From UHGV virus genome UHGV-0008389: a DNA stretch of 43,755 bases. The stretch is one strand, 5' to 3'. Source of the DNA: a virus. Under the pieces are notes generated by a model. That model had not been told where the DNA came from and searched no databases. It saw only the letters and a program-made list of their open reading frames with translations. The position numbers and the translations under genes are program-made. Positions 1-40,730 of this stretch are shown here, in pieces (within the stretch, counting starts at the first letter, position 1; every line of letters begins with the position of its first letter).

Positions 1-90
1 TCACTCTGCCAGATGGCGCAATGCCATCTGGTATCACTTAAAGGTATTAAAAACAACTTTTTGTCTTTTTACCTTCCCGTTTCGCTCAAG
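1..90. other. Bacterial chromosomal flank (B' side of attB-lambda) with a hairpin at about 8-30
   Basis: Reverse complement reads CTTGAGCGAAACGGGAAGGTAAAAAGACAA directly 3' of the core, matching the attB-lambda B' arm as recalled; inverted repeat CCAGATGGC...GCCATCTGG. Confidence 0.6.
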
Positions 91-105
91 TTAGTATAAA
101 AAAGC
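91..105. other. attR: attR core (15-bp lambda common core O at a P-O-B' junction)
   Basis: Sequence TTAGTATAAAAAAGC is the reverse complement of the lambda core GCTTTTTTATACTAA, with P-arm sequence on one side and B'-type sequence on the other. Confidence 0.8.
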
Positions 106-245
106 TGAACGTGAAACATTAAAAACCATTAATATCAATGTGTTGCAATATCTTTAGTCTAAAAAATAGACTGCATAATGCTACAAAACACAACATATCC
201 AGTCACTATGAATCAACTACTTAGATAGCATTAGTGACCTGTAAC
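106..245. promoter_or_regulatory. Lambda attP P arm (Int arm-type, IHF and Xis binding region)
   Basis: Reverse complement of 181-250 reads GCTCTGTTACAGGTCACTAATGCTATCTAAGTAGTTGATTCATAGTGACTGGATATGTTGTGTTTT, near-identical to the lambda P arm as recalled. Confidence 0.7.
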
Positions 246-251
246 AGAGCA

Positions 252-292
252 TTAGCGCAAGGTGATTTTTTGTCTTCTTGCGCTAATTTTTT
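252..292 (+). terminator. sib: sib/tI-like hairpin with T-tract (int retroregulation element)
   Basis: Stem TTAGCGCAAG / CTTGCGCTAA followed by TTTTTTG; matches the lambda sequence next to the P arm as recalled and is oriented in the int-transcript direction. Confidence 0.6.
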
Positions 293-622
293 GTCAACGC
301 ACTGGGTTAGTTGAATTTACAACCATGCTCAGTATCTCGATAAACGCAGAGAAATGATGCAGTGGTGGGCGGATTGGCTTGATGAAAAAGTGGCATAGCG
401 CCACCTACATCCCTGGGAAATCATCAAACTAACCTGCACGCGCATCGTTGATGATGCACCCATCCCATTTTTTTGATAGGATTAACACGAGAACAGAAAG
501 AATTATATCTAATTGTTTTTAAAGCGGAAATTTTCATACCATCTTTTCCATTACCGTTTTTATATAAATGTAATGAAGTATAGCTTTAAATGATTTAACA
601 TCAGGATATTATATAATCCCTA

Positions 623-1822
623 ATGGTCGTGAGCGTTTTTATGTTTGACTTGACGTTTATTATCTTTATTTTATCTTCCATCCCTGTATTTTTTGTTTTT
701 TGGATTGCCGGAAGGTTTAAGAATGAATTAGTTGCAGACTCTTCTTTTGGGTTGCGAGGTGATGACAATTTATCTTGCCTCAGGGGGTTGGCGGCTGTCA
801 TGGTCGCCCTTCACCATTCAGTATATATGTTCAATTATCTTTATCATGATAAATGGAGTATATTTTTGAATGATGGATTTACGGCGAAGTCAAGCAACAA
901 TAGTTTATTGGCTATTGCATATTTTGGCTCCATTCCAGTCATGATATTCTTTATGATTACAGGGTTTCTCTTCTTTAGAAAAATAATAAACAAACCAATA
1001 AACAATGCTGCAATATTTTTGTCGGCGCGAGTTAAGAGACTAATTCCAATGTATGCATTCATGGTGCTTTGCGTTGTTTGTGTTTCTGAATTAATTCGAC
1101 CCAACGATAGCATTGGGATTCACAACATTATTGTTGAAGTTGGCCGATATTTTACGTTTGGTATAATTGACCCTAATGGCCTTACACCTTCTATTCATGG
1201 ATCTTTAATCGTTGGCGGGGTTATCTGGACTCTTGCATATGAGTGGGGTTTTTATATAATTTTACCATATATCTCTATGTTCGTAAAATCAATAAGAGAT
1301 GCATGTTTTTCGGTAATAATTATGCTTTTCTCGGTATTAATTGCTTACCGCCAAGGGCTTATCAGTGAAATGTTTGCCACTCTTCTCTTTTGCTTTATTG
1401 GTGGCTTTGTTGCAGCGCTAGCTTCTGGTTACCTAAAGAACAACGCTATCAAACAAGCCAATAGCGTAATGATGACAATTGTGTACCTTTTATCGCTTAT
1501 TGCTGTTGCATACTGGCAGGACTTTAACATTTACAATGTTTACATAGTGATTCCGCTATTTTTGTTTTTTTTAAGTGCGTGTACTGGCTCCAAAGCTTTT
1601 CAAATTATAAACACCAAGTTCTTCAAGGTGGCGGGTTCTGTAAGTTACAGCATTTATTTGATGCATGGCTTAAGCATGGTAATGACCTTTAATTTCATTT
1701 CAAGCTCATTAAACTATACTGAGTTTGCAGCAATATCTTTATCAATTTGTGCAATGATAAGTTGCTTAACTTACTTATACATTGAAAAACCCGCAATGAA
1801 AAAACAGTTTAAAAACAATTAG
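623..1822 (+). CDS. Integral-membrane acyltransferase (acyltransferase-3 family, OafA/Oac-like O-antigen acetylase); lysogenic-conversion moron
   Basis: 399 aa, multiple hydrophobic segments, N-terminal LRGLAAVMVALHHS motif typical of acyltransferase-3; strongly AT-rich; lies between attR and the tail-fibre genes on the opposite strand. Start may be the second ATG at 641. Confidence 0.75.
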   Translation: MVVSVFMFDLTFIIFILSSIPVFFVFWIAGRFKNELVADSSFGLRGDDNLSCLRGLAAVMVALHHSVYMFNYLYHDKWSIFLNDGFTAKSSNNSLLAIAYFGSIPVMIFFMITGFLFFRKIINKPINNAAIFLSARVKRLIPMYAFMVLCVVCVSELIRPNDSIGIHNIIVEVGRYFTFGIIDPNGLTPSIHGSLIVGGVIWTLAYEWGFYIILPYISMFVKSIRDACFSVIIMLFSVLIAYRQGLISEMFATLLFCFIGGFVAALASGYLKNNAIKQANSVMMTIVYLLSLIAVAYWQDFNIYNVYIVIPLFLFFLSACTGSKAFQIINTKFFKVAGSVSYSIYLMHGLSMVMTFNFISSSLNYTEFAAISLSICAMISCLTYLYIEKPAMKKQFKNN

Positions 1823-1831
1823 TTAAAATAT

Positions 1832-1861
1832 TGGTCTCTCAGCAAATGCTGAGTGACCAAT
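1832..1861. terminator. Hairpin between convergent acyltransferase and tail-fibre-assembly genes
   Basis: Inverted repeat TTGGTCTCTCAGC aaat GCTGAGTGACCAA with one mismatch. Confidence 0.45.
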
Positions 1862-1865
1862 GAAG

Positions 1866-2297
1866 TTAAGCTGGCTTAATAGGCCATTCTATATCGGGAG
1901 CCTTGGTAACATTAATAGCTTCCAATTCATCAAGATAATCCAGCCATGCACCATACTGATATTTTTCATCATTACGGAGCCGACCCATAGCCGCTTTTCC
2001 AGGCCATTGCTTGCTGTTCATGTTAGAGTTGGCCTGTTCAATAAGAATCTGCCTCTTGCGTTCTGCTGCTGCTACCTGCTCATCATGAGTTAGTGCTGGT
2101 AGTTCCCCCCATTCCGGATAACCATCTTTTCCAGCGATGCGGACCTTCCCAGTTGGCGGTTCCTTTGTATATTCTGTAAATATATCTTCGTCACATTCAA
2201 CACCATCAGTAGGCCAGCAATTTCCAGAAATATAATCTTCTTTCATTGATGTTGGATAGAAAGCGTTATTTATTGCACTGTACACATATTTTTTCAT
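1866..2297 (-). CDS. tfa: Tail fibre assembly protein (Tfa)
   Basis: 143 aa; C-terminus APDIEWPIKPA resembles the conserved Tfa C-terminus (lambda Tfa ...APDIEWPAVPV as recalled); immediately downstream of the tail-fibre gene. Confidence 0.8.
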   Translation of the reverse strand: MKKYVYSAINNAFYPTSMKEDYISGNCWPTDGVECDEDIFTEYTKEPPTGKVRIAGKDGYPEWGELPALTHDEQVAAAERKRQILIEQANSNMNSKQWPGKAAMGRLRNDEKYQYGAWLDYLDELEAINVTKAPDIEWPIKPA

Positions 2298-2298
2298 T

Positions 2299-3054
2299 TT
2301 ATTTACCTATAGCTATCCATCGACAATAAGTTGTATTGCTACCTGATGGCTGGGAACCCATTAAGCTAAAACCAAGACCGGTACTAACGGGTGTAGCAGC
2401 AAAAGAAGGAATTGAATTTACTGAAGATTCCGTATTATCATACGACACAACAATTTGCACGGTTGAGTAGTTGGTAAATGCAATGGGGAAATTTATAAAA
2501 GTGGGAGATCCAATCGCTCCTGCCACTGAAATACCACGTTGAAAGATAGTTCCATCAGGGTAACGACACCAGCCATTTCCACTTGTAAAGCTAGACATGT
2601 CAGGAATTTGATTGGTGCCGGTCCCTACATTTCTTTTAGCCGCTTCTCCTAAACCAAGATATGAAAAAGCATCTTTCCACCCGGCACCATTGCTGTTTGG
2701 ATCAGATAGATTTCCTTCTGTTGTGTTAATGAATATTCTTTCCCCATCGTTCGAGATGAGCATCGCCCCTGACGGATATCCAGAAATCTCCGAAGCAAAT
2801 TCAGAATCAAAAGTATTCAGCGCCCCGCTGCTCGACCATCTACCCAGAGCAGAAAGTTCGTATAAAATTTGGTTCATATCCTGGCCTTTTGGCGGCAAAC
2901 CGCCAGCAGATTTCAGGATCATTGTTATTGGAGGAAACCCCAGTTCATACGATGCTGAGTTATCTCCTGCAGGAGTGGTTGGCAATATTACCCCTCTCTG
3001 TCCATTAACTCCAAATGGCTTAGGTTGTTTTTTAGGTGAGTCAGAACGATTCAT
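2299..3054 (-). CDS. Tail fibre protein
   Basis: 251 aa, Gly/Ser/Thr-rich; position between the baseplate gene and tfa. Confidence 0.65.
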   Translation of the reverse strand: MNRSDSPKKQPKPFGVNGQRGVILPTTPAGDNSASYELGFPPITMILKSAGGLPPKGQDMNQILYELSALGRWSSSGALNTFDSEFASEISGYPSGAMLISNDGERIFINTTEGNLSDPNSNGAGWKDAFSYLGLGEAAKRNVGTGTNQIPDMSSFTSGNGWCRYPDGTIFQRGISVAGAIGSPTFINFPIAFTNYSTVQIVVSYDNTESSVNSIPSFAATPVSTGLGFSLMGSQPSGSNTTYCRWIAIGK

Positions 3055-3056
3055 GC

Positions 3057-3695
3057 TTAATTCCTATAAAATGTGCCATCATTAAACGGATAGGCATCAG
3101 ATGCAAAACCAAAATAATGGCTAATGATTTTACGTATATTTACCAGAACACCACTCGGAACGGGCATCACCTCATAATTCGTGAGAATAGATTCTTCGTA
3201 TGGCGCAAGCTCAAATTCAAACGTTATTCCTATTGTCATATCTCGATAATTTACGCAATATGCTCTCCCTCTTTGATAAAAAAGTATTTTTAGAAATTTA
3301 TTTATATCTGTAATGGTGGCTATGCTTATGTTGGCAAATGCCTTGCAAAAAATCAATGTTCTGTAAGCGTCATCCCCGAGCCTGACACTTGTTGTTTCCT
3401 GCACTCCACCATAAAAAGGAGAATCATTAAATGGTGAAGGATAATCAGTGCTTCCATCGTCAGCCTCACTAAATCCAAATGAGTCACTGTCAATTGGAGC
3501 GACGATGTATCTGCTTATACCTACTATTTTCCCCCACATATCAAGGCCAAAAGATTCACACGTTGTCAAATCCCATACCTTTTTGATGAATTCATCTGTG
3601 AAGTCATCTAGGCTTACCGCCTGATTAAAAGTGTCAATGACAGATAATAGTTTTTTGCTTGCCGAGTATTGGGTAAGAATTGTGTCTTCCCACAT
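3057..3695 (-). CDS. Baseplate/tail protein (Mu gp48 / YmfQ-like, tentative DUF2313)
   Basis: 212 aa; synteny with the J-like baseplate gene upstream and tail fibre downstream. Confidence 0.55.
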   Translation of the reverse strand: MWEDTILTQYSASKKLLSVIDTFNQAVSLDDFTDEFIKKVWDLTTCESFGLDMWGKIVGISRYIVAPIDSDSFGFSEADDGSTDYPSPFNDSPFYGGVQETTSVRLGDDAYRTLIFCKAFANISIATITDINKFLKILFYQRGRAYCVNYRDMTIGITFEFELAPYEESILTNYEVMPVPSGVLVNIRKIISHYFGFASDAYPFNDGTFYRN

Positions 3696-3706: not shown

Positions 3707-4936
3707 CTACGATAATGTAACAGTGATATCTGATTCCTGAATGGTTGGAACCTGGTCTATGCCCATAGTCACAGCGGGTCCGTATAGTGAACCGTCTATG
3801 GAAATTTCAAGAGACAAAATTCCAACTGTATCAGGAGATATTGAAATAACAGGGGCATAGTATTTACCAGCATTTATCGTAGAACCAATTCGTGCCTTTC
3901 CAATACCCTCATACCCTCCATTGAACACGGTGACAACCATTTCCTTTACTTGTTTAGTAATATCACTTGGGGGATTTAGTGAAGAATCGATATTTACCTT
4001 AAAGTAAACCCGCGTAGGTGATGCCTTTTGCCATTGCATTACGTAAGATGGATATGGCGGCATGTAATTAACGTTATCGTAAACAGTGAACGTTGTATCA
4101 CCATTCATATTGGCGCCGGGGTTATAAGTATTGAATATTGACTCAGCAACATCAGTATCAGCCCCGCCATAAACACAAATATAAACAGAATGCGCAAGAA
4201 TCGGGAAATTCGTTGTTCCTTTATTTACTGTTTCTGCAGTTCTGTTTGACCATACGTAAGCATCAAGCACACCATCTGTCGCAAGTAACGCAGCTAATGT
4301 AGACGCATCCTGATTTCTGCTGTTTCTGGCAACTGATTGTCTCCGGCGAGTTTCAAAGGCGATCCGTGATTCAACATCAACACCAACGACCCCAGGGCTG
4401 ATATTATTTACAGCATCCCACCCGGAAACGGCTCGATAAATCTGATTCAGGGAGCCCGCTGCACACGGAATTGGTCCGGTTGTTGTGTTGACAAACTGCA
4501 CATCAACAGAGCCTGATGAGGGTATTACGGCATTGTCAATTGACTGATATATATACCCGCTCGTATCCACAGCGGTACTCCCTGCTGGTATTGTTGTTCC
4601 AACCTGACCAATGCATGTTGCCGTAACAACTGTCCCCTGAGCAGCGATCCGTTCCATAAAGTAAATCCGGCCAATCCCGTCCTGGAATCTGCCAGTTGAA
4701 AAGTCAGGGTTAATTTGATTAAACAAACAAAGAAGCTTGTCGTATTCCTGAGCGATAATTTCAGTATCAGACTGTGCGATCTGCCCTTGCGGTGAACTCA
4801 GTGACTGACTTGCACCACCACCAAGAGCCGTTGACATGTCTGTAAGTCTTCCCGCCAGCACATCCGCTATGTCGGGAACTGAAAGACCGTTTTCAGTGAT
4901 GGTTACATCAGGAACAGCCGTATTTAATATCGTCAT
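3707..4936 (-). CDS. Baseplate J-like protein (Mu gp47-like)
   Basis: 409 aa; size and position in a Mu-like baseplate cluster. Confidence 0.6.
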   Translation of the reverse strand: MTILNTAVPDVTITENGLSVPDIADVLAGRLTDMSTALGGGASQSLSSPQGQIAQSDTEIIAQEYDKLLCLFNQINPDFSTGRFQDGIGRIYFMERIAAQGTVVTATCIGQVGTTIPAGSTAVDTSGYIYQSIDNAVIPSSGSVDVQFVNTTTGPIPCAAGSLNQIYRAVSGWDAVNNISPGVVGVDVESRIAFETRRRQSVARNSRNQDASTLAALLATDGVLDAYVWSNRTAETVNKGTTNFPILAHSVYICVYGGADTDVAESIFNTYNPGANMNGDTTFTVYDNVNYMPPYPSYVMQWQKASPTRVYFKVNIDSSLNPPSDITKQVKEMVVTVFNGGYEGIGKARIGSTINAGKYYAPVISISPDTVGILSLEISIDGSLYGPAVTMGIDQVPTIQESDITVTLS

Positions 4937-8012: not shown

Positions 8013-8231
8013 CTAGTTATCAAAAAGTCCGTACGTTTCTTCTTCAGGAGTAAGGGGAAGAATCTCAATTCTATCTATAGATACCTTTTCAATGTACCCA
8101 TGAGGTCTGCTTAAAATTAAAGCTCTCTCATGCCACAGAACTCCAAGAATGTGATACCTTCCAGCATAGCCTTTTACCCTGGCTCTTCCTTTGATTCTTG
8201 GCGGCATAATGCCATATTTTTTCTTTGCCAT
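8013..8231 (-). CDS. Hypothetical small basic protein
   Basis: 72-aa ORF coupled to the upstream gene (ATG overlaps its stop). Confidence 0.4.
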   Translation of the reverse strand: MAKKKYGIMPPRIKGRARVKGYAGRYHILGVLWHERALILSRPHGYIEKVSIDRIEILPLTPEEETYGLFDN

Positions 8232-9007
8232 TATGCAACATTACTCCCATGAATCAGGTGTTGTAGTGCTTTAACACCTTCCGCATTGTAGCGGAATGCT
8301 TCCACCTGTTTGCTGGAATGTGCAGATTTATCCAGGAAGAACTTCCCGTACTGCTCAGTTTTGAGGTTGTTTGCGTTAGCAATGCGACCAATCTTGTTGG
8401 CCGTTACTCCAAGCTGCTCTGCAACCTCCCCTGCTGAGTAGTAATGCTCTTCTATTGCTGGAAGAGGTATTGCATTAAAACCAACGATCGGGTTGATTAT
8501 GTTTGCTGCCGCAGTCTGCTTTGCTTCCGGCGCAAGATTTGGCATCAAATCGAACAGATTGATAACAGCTTCAACCGTCATTTTCAATGTTCGCGCCTGG
8601 CGATACTCAACAAGTCCACTCGACGATTTACCGCTTTTAATGTGCGCTTCCTGCATACTTTCAAGTTTGTCTACAAGTGTTCGGCGAACTGCTTTAGATT
8701 CGCGAGCAGCAACACGAAGCGCCTGCTTGATAGTCATGGAGATAACATCAATGTCAGCCCCGTTTTTCCGACCTACACTTTTTGTGTAGGTCTCGCCCTC
8801 CAATTCATCCTCAATTTTCTCGATGAATTTGTTGTTACGTACTGATGGCTCTCCACATAACTTGCGAGCTTCATTAACCATCATCAGAAGACTTTGACTG
8901 TCAATGGTTTTATCCGTGACAACGGATCCGATGTTTGCTACATTCTTAAAAGTCATTAGGCATTCCTTATGTGGTAGTAAGGGTGTGACATAGGCCGCCA
9001 GCAGCAC
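8231..9007 (-). CDS. Putative antirepressor-like regulatory protein (KilA-C-like C-terminal region, tentative)
   Basis: 258-aa ORF; C-terminal ...AGEVAEQLGVTANKIGRIANANNLKTEQYGKFF resembles KilA-C/ANT-type domains; real start may be the internal Met at about 8956. Confidence 0.4.
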   Translation of the reverse strand: MLLAAYVTPLLPHKECLMTFKNVANIGSVVTDKTIDSQSLLMMVNEARKLCGEPSVRNNKFIEKIEDELEGETYTKSVGRKNGADIDVISMTIKQALRVAARESKAVRRTLVDKLESMQEAHIKSGKSSSGLVEYRQARTLKMTVEAVINLFDLMPNLAPEAKQTAAANIINPIVGFNAIPLPAIEEHYYSAGEVAEQLGVTANKIGRIANANNLKTEQYGKFFLDKSAHSSKQVEAFRYNAEGVKALQHLIHGSNVA

Positions 9008-9021
9008 ACTGGCGGTTTTTT
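8990..9021 (+). terminator. Plus-strand hairpin with T8 between ant and the next gene
   Basis: CCGCCAG cagcaca CTGGCGG followed by TTTTTTTT on the plus strand. Confidence 0.4.
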
Positions 9022-9040
9022 TTCACCGCCAGATGCGTCA

Positions 9041-9955
9041 TTAATACAGATGAACAGAAGGCGGCAATTCTTTATTCTTAAGCCTTATCCATGCGGAAAG
9101 ATTCGTTGGTCCGTCTGGCTCATTAATATCAACATCTCGTGTGTGGTTTATTAAAACGTCTCTCGCCATTCCGATAACATGCGAGAACTCATGACCATAG
9201 TCGTAGCATCTGCCGGAATAGTTCGATTGAATTTGTTTTAATGCCGGATACAGTTCGCGGAATAATGCCTGTGAACGGTTAGCATAATCCCATAGCCATA
9301 CAAGGCTGTTTGCTTCTTTTGCAGAAAGCTCGTTGGTTTTCTTCTCTTGTTTGCCAATGAACTCACCTTCAAGCGGAACGCGAGCAGCAAGTGACAGTGC
9401 TTCGGCAAACTGCTCCTCACTGATTTCTTTGTACGAACATCCAAAATGGGATTTCAGTGACGACCACATGGTGATCATCGCCTTAGCCTGTTTTTCTTTT
9501 GGCAGAGACTGACCGCAACTCATGACGAGTTGTTTAATGGCTTCCTGCTGTTCAGTGGTGATTTTACCCGGCAACGCCTTTTTAGCTTTCGGTGTATTTC
9601 CGTAAGACCCCGTTTTACGAATGGATGGCAAAACTTCAGCTGTCACCCATTTGCGGAATTTGTGCGGGACTGAACCTTTATTGACGGCATCACGGCAGCG
9701 CAGAACCAATGTATACATACCTGATTCGCTCACAATGCTTAAATTCTGCTCACCACCAAGGGTGTAACTTAAAGTTACTCCCTTCTCATCGTTATCAAGT
9801 GCAGTAAGCGCCTTGCGTGAGTTAGTCAGAGTTAAAGCATCACAAACATCTTTTGCTACAAACCACGGCTCACCGCACTTGTTGATGACGCGGATTTCAC
9901 TGTCGCCGAATTTGAAGATGGTGAAATCGTTTTGTGCCTTTGCTATACTTTTCAT
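9041..9955 (-). CDS. ant: Antirepressor Ant (Bro-N domain)
   Basis: 304 aa; N-terminal [30 protein letters not shown] matches the Bro-N motif of P22-type antirepressors; follows an arc-like gene. Confidence 0.8.
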
Positions 9956-35577: not shown

Positions 35578-36294
<717 letters not shown>

Positions 36295-36409: not shown

Positions 36410-37414
36410 ATGAATACTATTGAAAATAATGATGTTTATGTGTATATAGGCGATATTCATCGTGATGGTTATCTTGATCTAACCAATAAAATCAAGAAGC
36501 GTAAGTCACAAAATGAATTAAAAAAGAATGTTATCTTCTGTGTTGCTACTTATGGCGGTGATCCTAATGCTGGTTATCGTATAGGTAGGGCTCTCCAGCA
36601 CTATTATGAAACGGTAACACTTTTAGTTGTTGGGCCGTGCAAAAGTGCTGGTACACTAATAGCCATAGCTGCGAATAAACTTGTTATCGGTGACATGGGT
36701 GAGCTCGGGCCATTAGATATCCAACTGAAAAAAAACGATGAAATAGGTGAGATGAGTTCTGGTTTAGCCATTATGACAGCTCTCGATGCACTGAAGGAGC
36801 GCTCTATTTCAGCGTTTAACTCATACCTTGTTCAGATAAAATACGAAAACCAGATAAGCACTAAAATATCTGCTGACATCGCAACCAGACTTACAGAGGC
36901 ATTGATAGCCCCCATGGCTGCTCAGATAGATCCAATAAAACTTGGTGAGCATCAGCGTGCGATGAGCATTGCTATCACTTATGGTCAACGGTTAGCAGAC
37001 AAGCCAAGTAGTCTAAAAGAAGGGGCGTTAAGCAAACTCATCGCTTCGTATCCTTCACATGGATTTGTTATCGACAGAAAAGAAGCCAAGGAACTTTTCA
37101 AGTGTGTTGAATGTCCTAAAGGTATAACAGAAATACTCGATAATTTTTTCTGTGATAAGATTCATAGTGGTGAAATCCCAACGTTTGGAAAACCAAGGGT
37201 GATGGATTTCCCTCTTACTACACAAGATAAAGAGGACAATACTAATGCCGAAGAATCTGCAACCGGAGATGGAAATTCTCAACAAAATGTTGGAAAGCCA
37301 GATCCAAGAAAGTCGCAATCTGGCAAGAAAAGCGGAACAGCACCTGAACGAGATCAAAAAAGAACTGGAGCCGTATCAATTCAACCACCAGATGAACAGC
37401 AACCTAATGCGTGA
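36410..37414 (+). CDS. ClpP/SppA-fold serine protease-like protein occupying the rexA/rexB slot downstream of cI
   Basis: 334 aa, AT-rich; GGAG-type RBS; VIFCVATYGGDPNAGYRIGRAL and VVGPCKSAGTLIAIAA fit the ClpP/S49 pattern (GG..AG..I; G-x-[AC]-x-S-x-G around a candidate nucleophilic Ser); about 70-aa hydrophilic C-terminal tail; same strand and operon position as rexAB in lambda; terminator at 37445-37470. Confidence 0.65.
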   Translation: MNTIENNDVYVYIGDIHRDGYLDLTNKIKKRKSQNELKKNVIFCVATYGGDPNAGYRIGRALQHYYETVTLLVVGPCKSAGTLIAIAANKLVIGDMGELGPLDIQLKKNDEIGEMSSGLAIMTALDALKERSISAFNSYLVQIKYENQISTKISADIATRLTEALIAPMAAQIDPIKLGEHQRAMSIAITYGQRLADKPSSLKEGALSKLIASYPSHGFVIDRKEAKELFKCVECPKGITEILDNFFCDKIHSGEIPTFGKPRVMDFPLTTQDKEDNTNAEESATGDGNSQQNVGKPDPRKSQSGKKSGTAPERDQKRTGAVSIQPPDEQQPNA

Positions 37415-40091: not shown

Positions 40092-40508
40092 ATGGAAATT
40101 ACAGATATTCTGGTTAATCCAGATAATTACGACCAATTCAATATCTCTACTCAATCAGTTGATTTGGGTTGTGCAACTGTCAGCGCATGGCTACTTAATG
40201 GTGAACAGTTGGATAAATGCCTTGATGCACATATGACGGTTAACAGCTTCCTTGCAGAAAAAACACACTGGCAAGATGCTGGAGGGGAATATGCTGGATG
40301 GCTTGAAAGCATGGGATTTGAATATCAATCTGATGAAGGTTGGTGGAGCCTTATAGCTGTAACGCCTGAGACAATAGAATGCTTCGTTAAATACTCAAAC
40401 GACGATGACTATAAACACCAGGTAGATTCTGCGATAGAAAGATATAAAAGAAAATCATTCAGCCACGAAATATCATCAGTTCTTGATTTCATAGAAGTCT
40501 TCAAATAA
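40092..40508 (+). CDS. Hypothetical acidic protein
   Basis: 138 aa, net acidic, Trp-rich (WQDAGGEYAGWLESMGFEYQSDEGWW); early-left region. Confidence 0.5.
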   Translation: MEITDILVNPDNYDQFNISTQSVDLGCATVSAWLLNGEQLDKCLDAHMTVNSFLAEKTHWQDAGGEYAGWLESMGFEYQSDEGWWSLIAVTPETIECFVKYSNDDDYKHQVDSAIERYKRKSFSHEISSVLDFIEVFK

Positions 40509-40589
40509 GCCGCCTGAGCGCGGCTTTACCGCATACCAATAACGCTTCACTCGAGGCGTTTTTCGTTATGTATAAATAAGGAGCACACC

Positions 40590-40730
40590 ATGCAATATGC
40601 CATTGCAGGGTGGCCTGTTGCTGGCTGCCCTTCCGAATCTTTACTTGAACGAATCACCCGTAAATTACGTGACGGATGGAAACGCCTTATCGACATACTT
40701 AATCAGCCAGGAGTCCCAAAAAATGGATAA
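40590..40730 (+). CDS. cIII: cIII (C-terminally shortened relative to lambda)
   Basis: MQYAIAGWPVAGCPSESLLERITRKLRDGWKRLIDILNQPGVPKNG matches lambda CIII as recalled, but ends 8 residues early; GGAG RBS. Confidence 0.85.
   Translation: MQYAIAGWPVAGCPSESLLERITRKLRDGWKRLIDILNQPGVPKNG

What the first reader, a model, noticed from the sequence alone, without database searches (positions are those of the whole stretch)
623..1822. AT-rich membrane acyltransferase moron next to attR: likely serotype-converting O-antigen acetylase
A 399-aa acyltransferase-3 family membrane protein is encoded on the strand opposite to the tail genes, directly inside the att junction (b-region equivalent), with markedly lower GC than the neighbouring structural genes. 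Such genes in temperate phages modify the O-antigen, which is often the phage's own receptor.
Basis: partly seen in the sequence, partly recalled or inferred. Interest (0 to 1): 0.5.

Follow-up and report, generated by a model that had tools for sequence, protein, structure and literature searches.

The report
Prophage membrane O-acyltransferase gene beside attR
A lambda-site prophage of E. coli carries, between its attachment site and its tail-fibre genes, an intact membrane acyltransferase related to the Shigella phage enzyme OacB that acetylates the O-antigen; it is an uncharacterised member of a well-known class of lysogenic-conversion genes, not a new kind of system.

Summary
ORF 623-1822 (+) encodes a 399-aa protein (393 aa from ATG 641). 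It passes Pfam Acyl_transf_3 (80.7 bits, cut-off 31), has no SGNH domain, and models as 11 helices (pLDDT 90). The lambda att core lies at 91-105 and ybhB/bioA flank base 1, so the junction is attR. The gene converges on the tail-fibre chaperone.

It belongs to the OacB subfamily. The family profile scores Sf101 OacB at 330 bits, WecH at 42 bits and OpgC not at all. Six of seven OacB-critical residues are kept. In two O16 E. coli genomes the same cassette (99%) sits in an Sf101-type prophage at sbcB, in the slot where Sf101 carries oacB.

The exchanged block (415-2658) is acyltransferase, chaperone and the fibre's C-terminal tip. Four of nine 31-36%-identical relatives also sit beside tail-fibre genes.

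Caveats:
- The GC dip is real overall (35.6%, z -3) but absent at third codon positions.
- No promoter is demonstrated.
- The acceptor sugar is inferred only; nearest characterised relative is 25% identical.

Verdict: new member of a known kind, modest interest.

The parts
1..90 (.). Host chromosome flank: the bio-side (B') arm of lambda attB, immediately downstream of ybhB.
   Evidence: Found in 5421 of 5426 complete E. coli genomes. In L011, ybhB ends one base before the position equivalent to window base 1, with bioA beyond it.
91..105 (-). Lambda att core (O), GCTTTTTTATACTAA. Together with the P arm it forms attR (POB').
   Evidence: Single exact match in the window, expected 0.01 by chance. 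Matching regions of HK97 and 434 are annotated as attachment-site core.
106..406 (.). Lambda/434/HK97-type attP P arm and adjacent b-region DNA.
   Evidence: 90-97% identity to phages 434, HK97, HK106, Huey and ev099 over window bases 87-456.
244..294 (+). Terminator-type hairpin followed by a T-run, at the position annotated as the sib retroregulation site in HK97. It points from the att core inward, so it should block read-through from ybhB into the acyltransferase gene.
   Evidence: dG -24.2 kcal/mol, z -4.2, 0 of 200 shuffles fold as well. The insulating function is inferred.
315..398 (+). 26-codon ORF relic (IYNHAQYLDKRREMMQWWADWLDEKVA*) without an N-terminus. It may be the 3' end of an integrase-like gene.
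   Evidence: Translation. PGAP annotates the equivalent stretch as a CDS missing its N-terminus. ev099 calls the region 'mobile element protein'. The integrase identity rests on my recollection and was not confirmed; there is no match to Sf101-type Int.
415..622 (+). AT-rich (about 30-35% GC) upstream region that travels with the gene. It holds candidate sigma-70 hexamers: TTTAAA-16-TATTAT at 585-612, and a perfect TATAAT at 612-617.
   Evidence: The 99% homology block with four other loci starts at 415. Promoter scan found 11 sites against 8.6 expected, so the promoter is a candidate only.
623..1822 (+). Acyltransferase-3 (AT3-only) membrane protein gene: 399 aa from ATG 623, probably 393 aa from ATG 641. 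Motifs: R54-X10-H65, FFMITGFLF 109-117, R136-x-x-R139, WTLAYEW 202-208, SYSIYLMH 341-348.
1565..1572 (+). T8 run inside the ORF (codon ~315). Loss of one T creates an immediate TAA stop.
   Evidence: Database member P0125 (316 aa, from a 375-kb contig) ends exactly there.
1797..1802 (+). A-run of six (eight in other copies) that sets the last residues of the protein: KKQFKNN* here, KKNSLKTIS* elsewhere.
1829..1861 (.). Strong stem-loop between the two convergent stop codons (1822 and 1866). It is a terminator candidate for both transcripts; only the - strand version is followed by a U-rich tract.
   Evidence: dG -23.2 on + and -19.4 on - kcal/mol, z -4.85 and -4.61, 0 of 200 shuffles fold as well.
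1866..2297 (-). Tail fibre assembly chaperone (Caudo_TAP), part of the exchanged cassette.
   Evidence: Pfam E 7.4e-29 and PHROG 188 E 2.5e-50. 100% identical protein in L001.
2299..3054 (-). Short tail fibre (251 aa) with a gp53-like C-terminal domain. Only its C-terminal ~120 codons (2299-2658) belong to the exchanged cassette.
   Evidence: Pfam Gp53-like_C E 2.3e-09 and PHROG 1396 E 2.2e-61. The homology block ends at 2658. The C-terminal 125 aa are 92% identical to the L001 fibre and the N-terminal part is unrelated.

Best explanation
The gene encodes a stand-alone (AT3-only) inner-membrane O-acyltransferase of the OacB subfamily, carried as accessory cargo by a lambdoid prophage integrated at lambda attB.

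Proposed mechanism, following the AT3 model:
1. Acetyl-CoA enters a pore from the cytoplasm and is held by the conserved arginines R54, R136 and R139.
2. The thioester is presented to the intramembrane H65.
3. The acyl group is passed to a sugar hydroxyl of a surface polysaccharide on the periplasmic face. The most likely acceptor is the O-antigen repeat unit.

Expressed from the prophage, this would change the lysogen's O-antigen epitope (serotype conversion). It would also reduce adsorption of phages that need the unmodified glycan, possibly including the carrier phage itself, since the gene moves together with that phage's fibre tip and chaperone.

Shown here: family and subfamily membership, motifs, fold and topology, position, mobility as a cassette, and linkage to receptor-binding genes.
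Inferred: acetyl as the acyl group, O-antigen as the acceptor, expression in the lysogen, and the exclusion phenotype.
For: Family membership:
- Pfam AT3 at 80.7 bits, cut-off 31; PHROG 'O-acetyltransferase' 3.3e-44.
- 52-sequence alignment with invariant R54, H65, F109, F110, F117, R136, R139, W202, E207, Y342, S343, Y345 and E388. These include the R/K-X10-H and RXXR motifs named as essential in the AT3 literature (PMC9558356; PMC9833829).
- AlphaFold model pLDDT 90.1, pTM 0.90, 11 long helices. K+R is 10 against 4 on alternate loops, giving N-out/C-in, the topology predicted for OacB (PMC8952252).

Subfamily:
- BLASTP to OacB E 1e-23 over 357 residues. OacB-critical R47, H58, W71, F98, R116 and R119 align with R54, H65, W78, F117, R136 and R139.
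- hhalign probability 100, E 1e-63.
- The family HMM scores OacB at 330 bits and WecH at 42 bits; OpgC is not reported at E<=10.

Position:
- The order attR, acyltransferase, convergent fibre genes matches int/attP, oacB, convergent tailspike in Sf101.
- The 99%-identical cassette also lies about 100 bp from the Sf101-type att core, in prophages at sbcB/dacD whose Int is 99% identical to Sf101 Int.

Accessory status:
- Present in only 2 of 5426 complete E. coli genomes.
- Other prophages at the same att site carry other cargo in this slot.
- Retained in decayed prophage remnants that lost all structural genes.

Linkage to receptor-binding genes:
- The exchanged block 415-2658 is acyltransferase, chaperone and fibre tip.
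- Four of nine relatives at 31-36% identity lie next to fibre, chaperone or tailspike-type genes in different prophage types.
- The P2-like locus has homologues of all three cassette genes: 31%, 38% and 46% identity.

Transcription unit: terminator-type hairpins on both sides.
Against: - The nearest characterised enzyme (OacB) is only 25% identical, and AT3 acceptor specificity cannot be read from sequence.
- The seventh OacB-critical residue, S146, aligns with G165.
- No promoter is demonstrated. Promoter-like sites are no more frequent than in shuffled sequence.
- The low GC is not seen at third codon positions.
- The carrier phage has a short chaperone-dependent fibre and no tailspike gene was identified next to it. 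From general knowledge, such fibres often bind LPS core or outer-membrane proteins, so 'modifies its own receptor' is not established.
- Several subfamily members lie outside recognisable prophage contexts, next to fliE, between mig-14 and cpxP, or beside an IS.
- A T7 frameshift allele exists, so the gene is dispensable in at least some hosts.
- The O-type of the window's own host is unknown.
Confidence: 0.6

Rival explanations
1. It is an active AT3 acyltransferase, but the acceptor is another envelope glycan: a capsular K-antigen, LPS core, colanic acid, enterobacterial common antigen or periplasmic glucans. The conversion phenotype would then be capsule or core modification, not O-serotype change.
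For: AT3-only proteins act on many acceptors, including ECA (WecH), OPG (OpgC), PNAG (IcaC) and Nod factors (PMC9558356). In Klebsiella, 5-30% of prophages per K-locus encode predicted acetyltransferases, and two were among the strongest GWAS predictors of capsule (K-locus) type (PMC13123978). The linked fibre is a short gp53-like fibre and not an O-antigen-cleaving tailspike. The Neisseriaceae and Franconibacter relatives live in hosts with different surface glycans.
Against: The family profile scores the O-antigen enzyme OacB at 330 bits over its full length, WecH at only 42 bits, and does not report OpgC. The cassette sits in the slot that holds oacB in Sf101-type phages. There is no NCBIfam equivalog hit to any named enzyme.
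Confidence: 0.25
2. It is silent or decaying cargo. The ORF is intact, but it is not expressed or not functional in this host and merely hitch-hikes with the fibre-tip and chaperone cassette.
For: No promoter signal above chance. Two homopolymer tracts vary among copies, and one variant truncates the protein at 316 aa. Only 2 of 5426 complete genomes carry it.
Against: All 18 invariant family residues and 6 of 7 OacB-critical residues are intact. The model is confident over the whole length. The gene is kept, intact, in prophage remnants that lost every structural gene, which fits host-level retention. Copies in different prophages are 99% identical with an open frame.
Confidence: 0.08
3. It transfers an acyl group other than acetyl (for example succinyl, as proposed for OpgC and IcaC), or it needs a separate periplasmic SGNH-type partner encoded elsewhere in the host.
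For: The AT3 family includes succinyl transferases, and WecH can hand its acetyl group to a soluble SGNH protein (PMC9558356). How AT3-only proteins complete the transfer is unresolved.
Against: The closest characterised relatives (OacB, and Oac by family) are acetyltransferases that act without a phage-encoded partner. No other gene lies between att and the fibre chaperone.
Confidence: 0.07

Closest known systems
OacB (O-acyltransferase B) of Shigella flexneri phage Sf101
   Same: Both are AT3-only proteins of about 390 aa with a predicted 11 TM helices, N-out and C-in. They align over the full length (E 1e-23; family HMM 330 bits). Six of seven critical residues are shared. The gene order is the same: attP, acyltransferase, convergent receptor-binding gene. 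The window's cassette is found in prophages with a 99%-identical Sf101-type integrase at sbcB.
   Different: Identity is only 25.5%. The S146 equivalent is glycine. The carrier here has a contractile-type tail with baseplate J, DUF2612 and a short fibre plus chaperone, not a P22/Sf6-like podovirus tailspike. The integration site here is lambda attB. The acceptor sugar is unknown.
Oac (OacA) of Shigella phage Sf6
   Same: An AT3-only seroconverting enzyme with RXXR arginines essential for function. Acetylation of the O-antigen blocks superinfection by the carrier phage (PMC9558356).
   Different: It did not appear in a tblastn of the phage collection at E<=1e-5, so it is more distant than OacB. 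From memory it is shorter (about 333 aa) and lacks the N-terminal extra helix; this was not tested here.
The accessory-gene slot between tail-fibre assembly gene G and sheath gene FI of P2-like phages (Z/fun in P2)
   Same: The 31%-identical relative P0011 sits in a P2-like prophage between the sheath gene and the chaperone, convergent with the chaperone as in the window. That this slot holds the lysogenic-conversion gene Z/fun in P2 is from my own knowledge.
   Different: P2 Z/fun is not an acyltransferase. The window's phage is lambdoid, and here the slot is also the prophage end.
OafA / OafB (GtrC family II) of Salmonella and prophage BTP1
   Same: An AT3 domain with the R/K-X10-H and RXXR motifs. 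OafB is prophage-borne and acetylates O-antigen rhamnose (PMC9558356, PMC9833829).
   Different: These are AT3-SGNH fusions of about 640 aa. The window protein has no SGNH domain. The window has no cluster of GATC sites upstream, of the kind I recall for phase-variable gtr operons.
WecH and OpgC, the chromosomal AT3-only enzymes of E. coli
   Same: Same Pfam family and stand-alone architecture.
   Different: Far more distant. BLASTP gives E 0.005 over 77 residues for WecH and E 0.46 for OpgC. The family HMM gives 42 bits for WecH and no reported hit for OpgC.

Membership tests
Acyltransferase-3 (Pfam PF01757, AT3) | Profile score above the curated gathering threshold over most of the domain | tested here: met
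   80.7 bits against a cut-off of 31, E 1.4e-22, profile positions 3-319 of 326.
Acyltransferase-3 (Pfam PF01757, AT3) | R/K-X10-H motif in the first core helix | tested here: met
   R54 and H65 are invariant in 52 sequences. The motif is defined in PMC9558356.
Acyltransferase-3 (Pfam PF01757, AT3) | RXXR motif at the cytoplasmic start of TM3 | tested here: met
   R136-V-K-R139, both arginines invariant, at the start of helix 129-158.
Acyltransferase-3 (Pfam PF01757, AT3) | Polytopic 10-helix membrane core | tested here: met
   AlphaFold model pLDDT 90.1 with 11 long helices, one N-terminal extra plus ten. No solved structure matched (best Foldseek E 0.033, none at E<=0.001), so the fold could not be checked against an experimental AT3 structure.
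Acyltransferase-3 (Pfam PF01757, AT3) | Acyl-CoA-dependent transfer of an acyl group to an extracytoplasmic acceptor | not testable with these tools
   Needs biochemistry.
Phage AT3-only O-antigen O-acetyltransferases (Oac/OacB type, seroconversion) | Stand-alone AT3 domain without a fused SGNH domain | tested here: met
   Single Pfam domain in 399 aa. The model is all-helical to the C-terminus.
Phage AT3-only O-antigen O-acetyltransferases (Oac/OacB type, seroconversion) | Residues shown by mutagenesis to be critical in OacB (R47, H58, W71, F98, R116, R119, S146) | tested here: inconclusive
   Six of seven are conserved (R54, H65, W78, F117, R136, R139). S146 aligns with G165 in a poorly aligned loop (PMC8952252).
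Phage AT3-only O-antigen O-acetyltransferases (Oac/OacB type, seroconversion) | Encoded by a temperate phage between attP and the receptor-binding gene | tested here: met
   att core 91-105, ORF 623-1822, convergent chaperone and fibre genes 1866-3054. Same order in Sf101.
Phage AT3-only O-antigen O-acetyltransferases (Oac/OacB type, seroconversion) | Adds O-acetyl to an O-antigen sugar and changes serotype | not testable with these tools
   Needs LPS NMR or MS and serology on lysogen, cured strain and mutant.
Phage AT3-only O-antigen O-acetyltransferases (Oac/OacB type, seroconversion) | Protects the lysogen from superinfection by phages that use the unmodified glycan | not testable with these tools
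   Needs adsorption and plating assays.
Moron (autonomous accessory transcription unit in a phage genome) | Present or absent between otherwise conserved flanks in related phages | tested here: met
   Only 2 of 5426 complete E. coli genomes carry it. Other prophages at lambda attB have S24/HumD or DUF4145 cargo after the same P arm. The cassette sits next to two different att types.
Moron (autonomous accessory transcription unit in a phage genome) | Own terminator | tested here: inconclusive
   There is a strong hairpin at 1829-1861, z about -4.7 on both strands. On the + strand it lacks a clear U-tract. Function was not tested.
Moron (autonomous accessory transcription unit in a phage genome) | Own promoter | tested here: inconclusive
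   Candidate hexamers at 585-617, but the scan found 11 sites against 8.6 expected in shuffles.
Moron (autonomous accessory transcription unit in a phage genome) | Nucleotide composition different from the neighbours | tested here: inconclusive
   Overall GC is 35.6% (z -2.95). GC3 of 0.372 is no lower than the adjacent tail genes at 0.32-0.36.
AT3-SGNH two-domain acetyltransferases (OafA, OafB, OatA) | C-terminal periplasmic SGNH domain | tested here: not met
   No second domain.
WecH / OpgC orthologues | Full-length close similarity to the E. coli K-12 proteins | tested here: not met
   WecH E 0.005 over 77 aa; OpgC E 0.46.
Dam/OxyR phase-variable O-antigen modification operons (gtr type) | Paired GATC sites in the regulatory region upstream (as I recall the gtr switch) | tested here: not met
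   Only one GATC in window 1-2400, at 1200 inside the ORF.

The most novel reading that the evidence does not exclude
The unit of exchange is not the acyltransferase alone. It is a three-gene host-range and exclusion cassette made of the fibre's C-terminal (presumably receptor-binding) tip, its chaperone and the acyltransferase. It moves intact between prophages with unrelated baseplates and different integrases (lambda attB type and Sf101/sbcB type). The same trio recurs at 31-46% identity in a P2-like prophage. On this reading, the enzyme masks the very receptor that the co-transferred fibre tip recognises, so recognition and self-exclusion are inherited together.
Probability: 0.3. Interest if true: 0.5.

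Novelty: new member of a known kind. Interest (0 to 1): 0.3.

Why it matters
Prophage-borne O-acetylation changes serotype, antibody recognition and phage susceptibility. That matters for O-antigen vaccines, serotyping and phage therapy.

This enzyme is uncharacterised. Its nearest non-identical relatives are about 35% identical, and the nearest studied enzyme is 25% identical. It occurs in human clinical or carriage E. coli, including two O16 isolates. It could therefore explain non-stoichiometric O-acetylation or unexpected phage resistance in those strains.

The tight linkage to the fibre tip and chaperone gives a concrete, testable case of a receptor-recognition module and a receptor-modifying enzyme being inherited together. 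It does not open a new category of biology.

Tried and rejected
- PDB sequence search and Foldseek against the PDB gave no meaningful hit. There is no solved structure to anchor the fold. The AFDB50 library was unavailable. BFVD gave one hit, a 637-aa viral protein with no name in the tables at hand.
- An IMG/VR scan with the protein found nothing. The exact window protein is not on record in the contig index. P0121 could not be looked up.
- NCBIfam gave no equivalog and PADLOC gave no defence-system hit.
- The promoter scan was not above chance, so I do not claim a promoter.
- A Dam/OxyR-type phase switch was rejected: there are no GATC sites upstream.
- I tested whether the relic at 315-398 matches the Sf101-type integrase. 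It does not, so its integrase identity remains a recollection.
- GC as evidence of foreign origin was rejected after the GC3 comparison.
- The two complete genomes that carry the gene are both O16 with identical cluster proteins. They look clonal, so they are one data point and do not establish an O-type association.
- A megablast of the structural region against deposited phages found only scattered accessory-gene matches. The phage could not be assigned to a named species.
Full report
**1. Observation**

- It matches Pfam Acyl_transf_3 (PF01757) at 80.7 bits against a gathering score of 31, over residues 49-380.
- It matches PHROG 3333 'O-acetyltransferase' at 3.3e-44.
- No NCBIfam equivalog names it.
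- The four genes downstream are all on the - strand: tail-fibre assembly chaperone 1866-2297, gp53-like tail fibre 2299-3054, DUF2612 wedge protein 3057-3695, and baseplate J 3707-4936.

A second in-frame ATG at 641 (393 aa) is the likelier start. RefSeq uses it for near-identical copies, and it gives an N-terminal length matching the 35%-identical homologues.

**2. The att junction**

The lambda core GCTTTTTTATACTAA occurs once in the window, at 91-105 on the - strand, with 0.01 expected by chance. Bases 87 to about 456 match the attP region of phages 434, HK97, HK106 and Huey at 90-97%. This includes stretches annotated as attachment core and sib site.

Bases 1-90 are E. coli chromosome, present in 5421 of 5426 complete genomes. 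In strain QA-1986 630, ybhB ends one base before the position equivalent to window base 1, with bioA beyond it.

The window holds no tRNA and no second att core. It ends inside the early region, before int and attL.

Pfam scans of the rest give a lambdoid prophage in reversed prophage order: tail, head, terminase, lysis, Q, replication (O and a DnaC-like protein), cI, then early genes. A lambda cIII thermoregulator RNA lies at 40577-40635.

**3. Composition**

The ORF is 35.6% GC. That is the lowest of 46 genes in the window (mean 45.9%, sd 3.5, z -2.95) and in the lowest 0.5% of 1200-bp windows.

Its third-position GC (0.372) is not below that of the adjacent fibre and baseplate genes (0.32-0.36). 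Much of the dip therefore reflects a protein that is 53% hydrophobic residues. The whole distal tail region is AT-rich at synonymous sites. 'AT-rich' is true, but as evidence of foreign origin it is weak.

**4. What the protein is**

A search of 5.8 billion proteins found one 99% cluster (91 members; every member that carries a name is from E. coli). Nothing else is closer than 35-36% identity.

A 52-sequence alignment has 18 invariant columns, including R54, H65, F109, F110, F117, R136, R139, W202, E207, Y342, S343, Y345 and E388. These cover the two motifs that the AT3 literature names as essential and as probable acyl-CoA contacts:
- R/K-X10-H in the first core helix;
- RXXR at the cytoplasmic start of TM3 (PMC9558356; PMC9833829).

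AlphaFold with this alignment gives pLDDT 90.1 and pTM 0.90, with eleven long helices. Lysine plus arginine counts are 10 against 4 on alternate loops. This puts the N-terminus outside and the C-terminus inside, the topology predicted for OacB (PMC8952252).

There is no SGNH domain. No solved structure matches by sequence or by Foldseek.

**5. Subfamily and rival acceptors**

In the deposited-phage collection the best hit is OacB of Shigella phage Sf101: 25.5% identity and 87% coverage, with a pairwise E of 1e-23.

Six of the seven residues shown by mutagenesis to be critical in OacB align with identical residues here:

| OacB residue | Window protein |
|---|---|
| R47 | R54 |
| H58 | H65 |
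| W71 | W78 |
| F98 | F117 |
| R116 | R136 |
| R119 | R139 |
| S146 | G165 (not conserved) |

A profile of the 52 homologues gives these scores (hhalign probability 100 for OacB):

| Protein | Known acceptor | HMM score |
|---|---|---|
| OacB (Sf101) | O-antigen | 330 bits, full length |
| WecH (E. coli K-12) | ECA | 42 bits |
| OpgC (E. coli K-12) | periplasmic glucans | not reported at E<=10 |

The protein therefore lies on the OacB branch of the family. That ranks O-antigen above ECA or periplasmic glucans as the acceptor. It does not prove the acceptor.

**6. Position and mobility**

Only two complete E. coli genomes of 5426 carry the gene. In both it lies next to dacD and not at lambda attB. 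Both are O16 with identical O-antigen cluster proteins, so they probably represent one acquisition.

Their prophage integrase, next to sbcB, is 99% identical to Sf101 Int. Sf101 integrates at sbcB with core CGTAATCGTGAAA (PMC4159516). The reverse complement of that core lies about 100 bp before the cassette in L001.

In Sf101 the gene order is int/attP, small ORF, oacB, convergent tailspike. The window's acyltransferase therefore occupies, in Sf101-type prophages, the slot that holds the experimentally proven O-antigen acetylase in Sf101. In the window, the same cassette is joined instead to a lambda-type attP arm.

Other prophages at lambda attB carry different cargo after the same arm: an S24/HumD-type protein, or DUF4145 plus an invertase. 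This is the behaviour of an exchangeable accessory slot.

**7. Linkage to the receptor-binding module**

blastn of the window against four loci that carry the 99% copy shows that the shared block is 415-2658 only. It comprises:
- the AT-rich upstream region;
- the acyltransferase;
- the chaperone, which is 100% identical as protein;
- the C-terminal ~120 codons of the fibre.

The fibre N-terminus and the baseplate genes show no nucleotide similarity.

In two draft genomes the prophage has lost every structural gene. It keeps the acyltransferase, the chaperone and a fused fibre fragment.

I sampled nine relatives at 31-36% identity:

| Relative | Context |
|---|---|
| P0004 | Prophage with a Mu-like baseplate, near the fibre |
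| P0005 | Prophage, beside an 826-aa tail fibre/spike protein |
| P0007 | Neisseriaceae prophage remnant, beside a chaperone |
| P0011 | P2-like prophage, between the sheath gene and the chaperone |
| P0032 | Near a weak GtrA-family hit |
| P0003, P0015, P0020 | Non-phage or uninformative contexts |

(P0002 was not looked up; the nine counts the eight above plus the Franconibacter cluster members seen.)

The P2-like locus has homologues of all three cassette genes: acyltransferase 31%, chaperone 38%, fibre tip 46%. This fits an old association between this acyltransferase lineage and fibre-tip/chaperone modules. It does not prove one, because chaperone and fibre-tip families are widespread.

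**8. Transcription signals**

- A terminator-type hairpin with a T-run at 244-294 (+) lies where HK97 annotates sib (dG -24.2, z -4.2). It points from the att core inward. It should stop read-through from ybhB, which faces the prophage.
- A second strong hairpin at 1829-1861 separates the convergent stop codons (z -4.85 and -4.61).
- Candidate -35/-10 hexamers lie at 585-617. Promoter-like sites are no more frequent than in shuffled sequence, so expression in the lysogen is inferred, not shown.
- There is no cluster of GATC sites upstream, so I find no sign of a Dam/OxyR switch of the gtr type.

**9. Mechanism proposed**

By homology with the AT3 model:
1. Acetyl-CoA enters from the cytoplasm and is bound by R54, R136 and R139.
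2. H65 lies within the membrane next to the thioester.
3. The acyl group is delivered to a sugar hydroxyl on the periplasmic side, probably on the O-antigen unit.

The predicted consequences are a changed O-epitope and reduced adsorption of phages that need the unmodified glycan. Whether that includes the carrier phage is open. Its fibre is a short gp53-like fibre with a chaperone, and no tailspike gene was identified beside it.

I put 0.6 on O-antigen O-acetylation with lysogenic conversion, 0.25 on another envelope glycan, and less than 0.1 each on silent cargo and on a different acyl group or a required partner.

**10. Novelty**

Prophage-encoded AT3 acetyltransferases next to att sites and receptor-binding genes are textbook lysogenic-conversion genes: Sf6 Oac, Sf101 OacB and BTP1 OafB. 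They are common in Klebsiella prophages too.

This is a new, uncharacterised member of that kind. The one moderately interesting feature is that the fibre tip, the chaperone and the acyltransferase are exchanged as a unit between prophages with different integrases and baseplates.

Noticed in passing
window 1565-1572: T8 run inside the acyltransferase ORF. Loss of one T gives an immediate TAA stop. Database member P0125 (316 aa, from a 375-kb contig) ends exactly there, and would lose the last two helices and the SYSIYLxH motif. This could be a slippage hotspot or an assembly error.
   Followed up: partly
window 1797-1802: A-run length polymorphism: A6 here, A8 in the RefSeq copies. It rewrites only the last residues (KKQFKNN* against KKNSLKTIS*). 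Both alleles are frequent in the 99% cluster.
   Followed up: yes
window 315-398 (+): 26-codon ORF relic, IYNHAQYLDKRREMMQWWADWLDEKVA*, resembling from memory the C-terminal end of an integrase. PGAP calls the equivalent stretch a CDS missing its N-terminus. 56 bp of it (338-393) are 89% identical to DNA just upstream of oacB in Sf101 (L008 3673-3728).
   Followed up: partly
window 8231-9955 (-): An accessory island inside the tail-gene block. It holds a Bro-N/P22 antirepressor-C protein (9041-9955) and a 258-aa ORF with no Pfam hit. The DNA is 91.6% identical to antirepressor regions of Stx-converting phages, and an adjacent stretch is 97% identical to a KilA region of phage JEP4. The surrounding structural genes have no close match in deposited phages.
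   Followed up: no
window 36410-37414 (+): 334-aa ORF immediately downstream of the cI-like repressor (35581-36294), in what I recall as the rexAB-equivalent slot. It has very low GC3 (0.299). There are only sub-threshold ClpP/SDH-type serine-protease hits and no PADLOC hit. It is a candidate prophage-expressed exclusion or defence gene.
   Followed up: partly
window 40577-40635 (+): Lambda cIII thermoregulator RNA element (Rfam RF01804, 88.5 bits). It sits about 70 nt downstream of a low-GC 138-aa ORF (40092-40508, GC 0.384).
   Followed up: no
L006 6898-9255 and L007 1875-4232: In two draft E. coli genomes the sbcB/dacD prophage is a remnant. A DNA_circ_N plus gp53-like-C fusion ORF abuts Metallophos/NinH/NinG genes. 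All head and tail genes are deleted, but the acyltransferase and chaperone are intact.
   Followed up: partly
window 1860-25000: The structural module has no close nucleotide relative among 50,697 deposited phage genomes. It includes DUF3383 sheath-like, Phage_portal_3, T4-type terminase, baseplate J and DUF2612 genes. The best long match is 69.8% identity to a Vibrio phage over 3 kb.
   Followed up: no
L012 6001-7188: In a P2-like prophage, a 31%-identical acyltransferase sits between the sheath gene and the tail-fibre chaperone. From my own knowledge, this is the slot that holds the conversion gene Z/fun in P2.
   Followed up: partly
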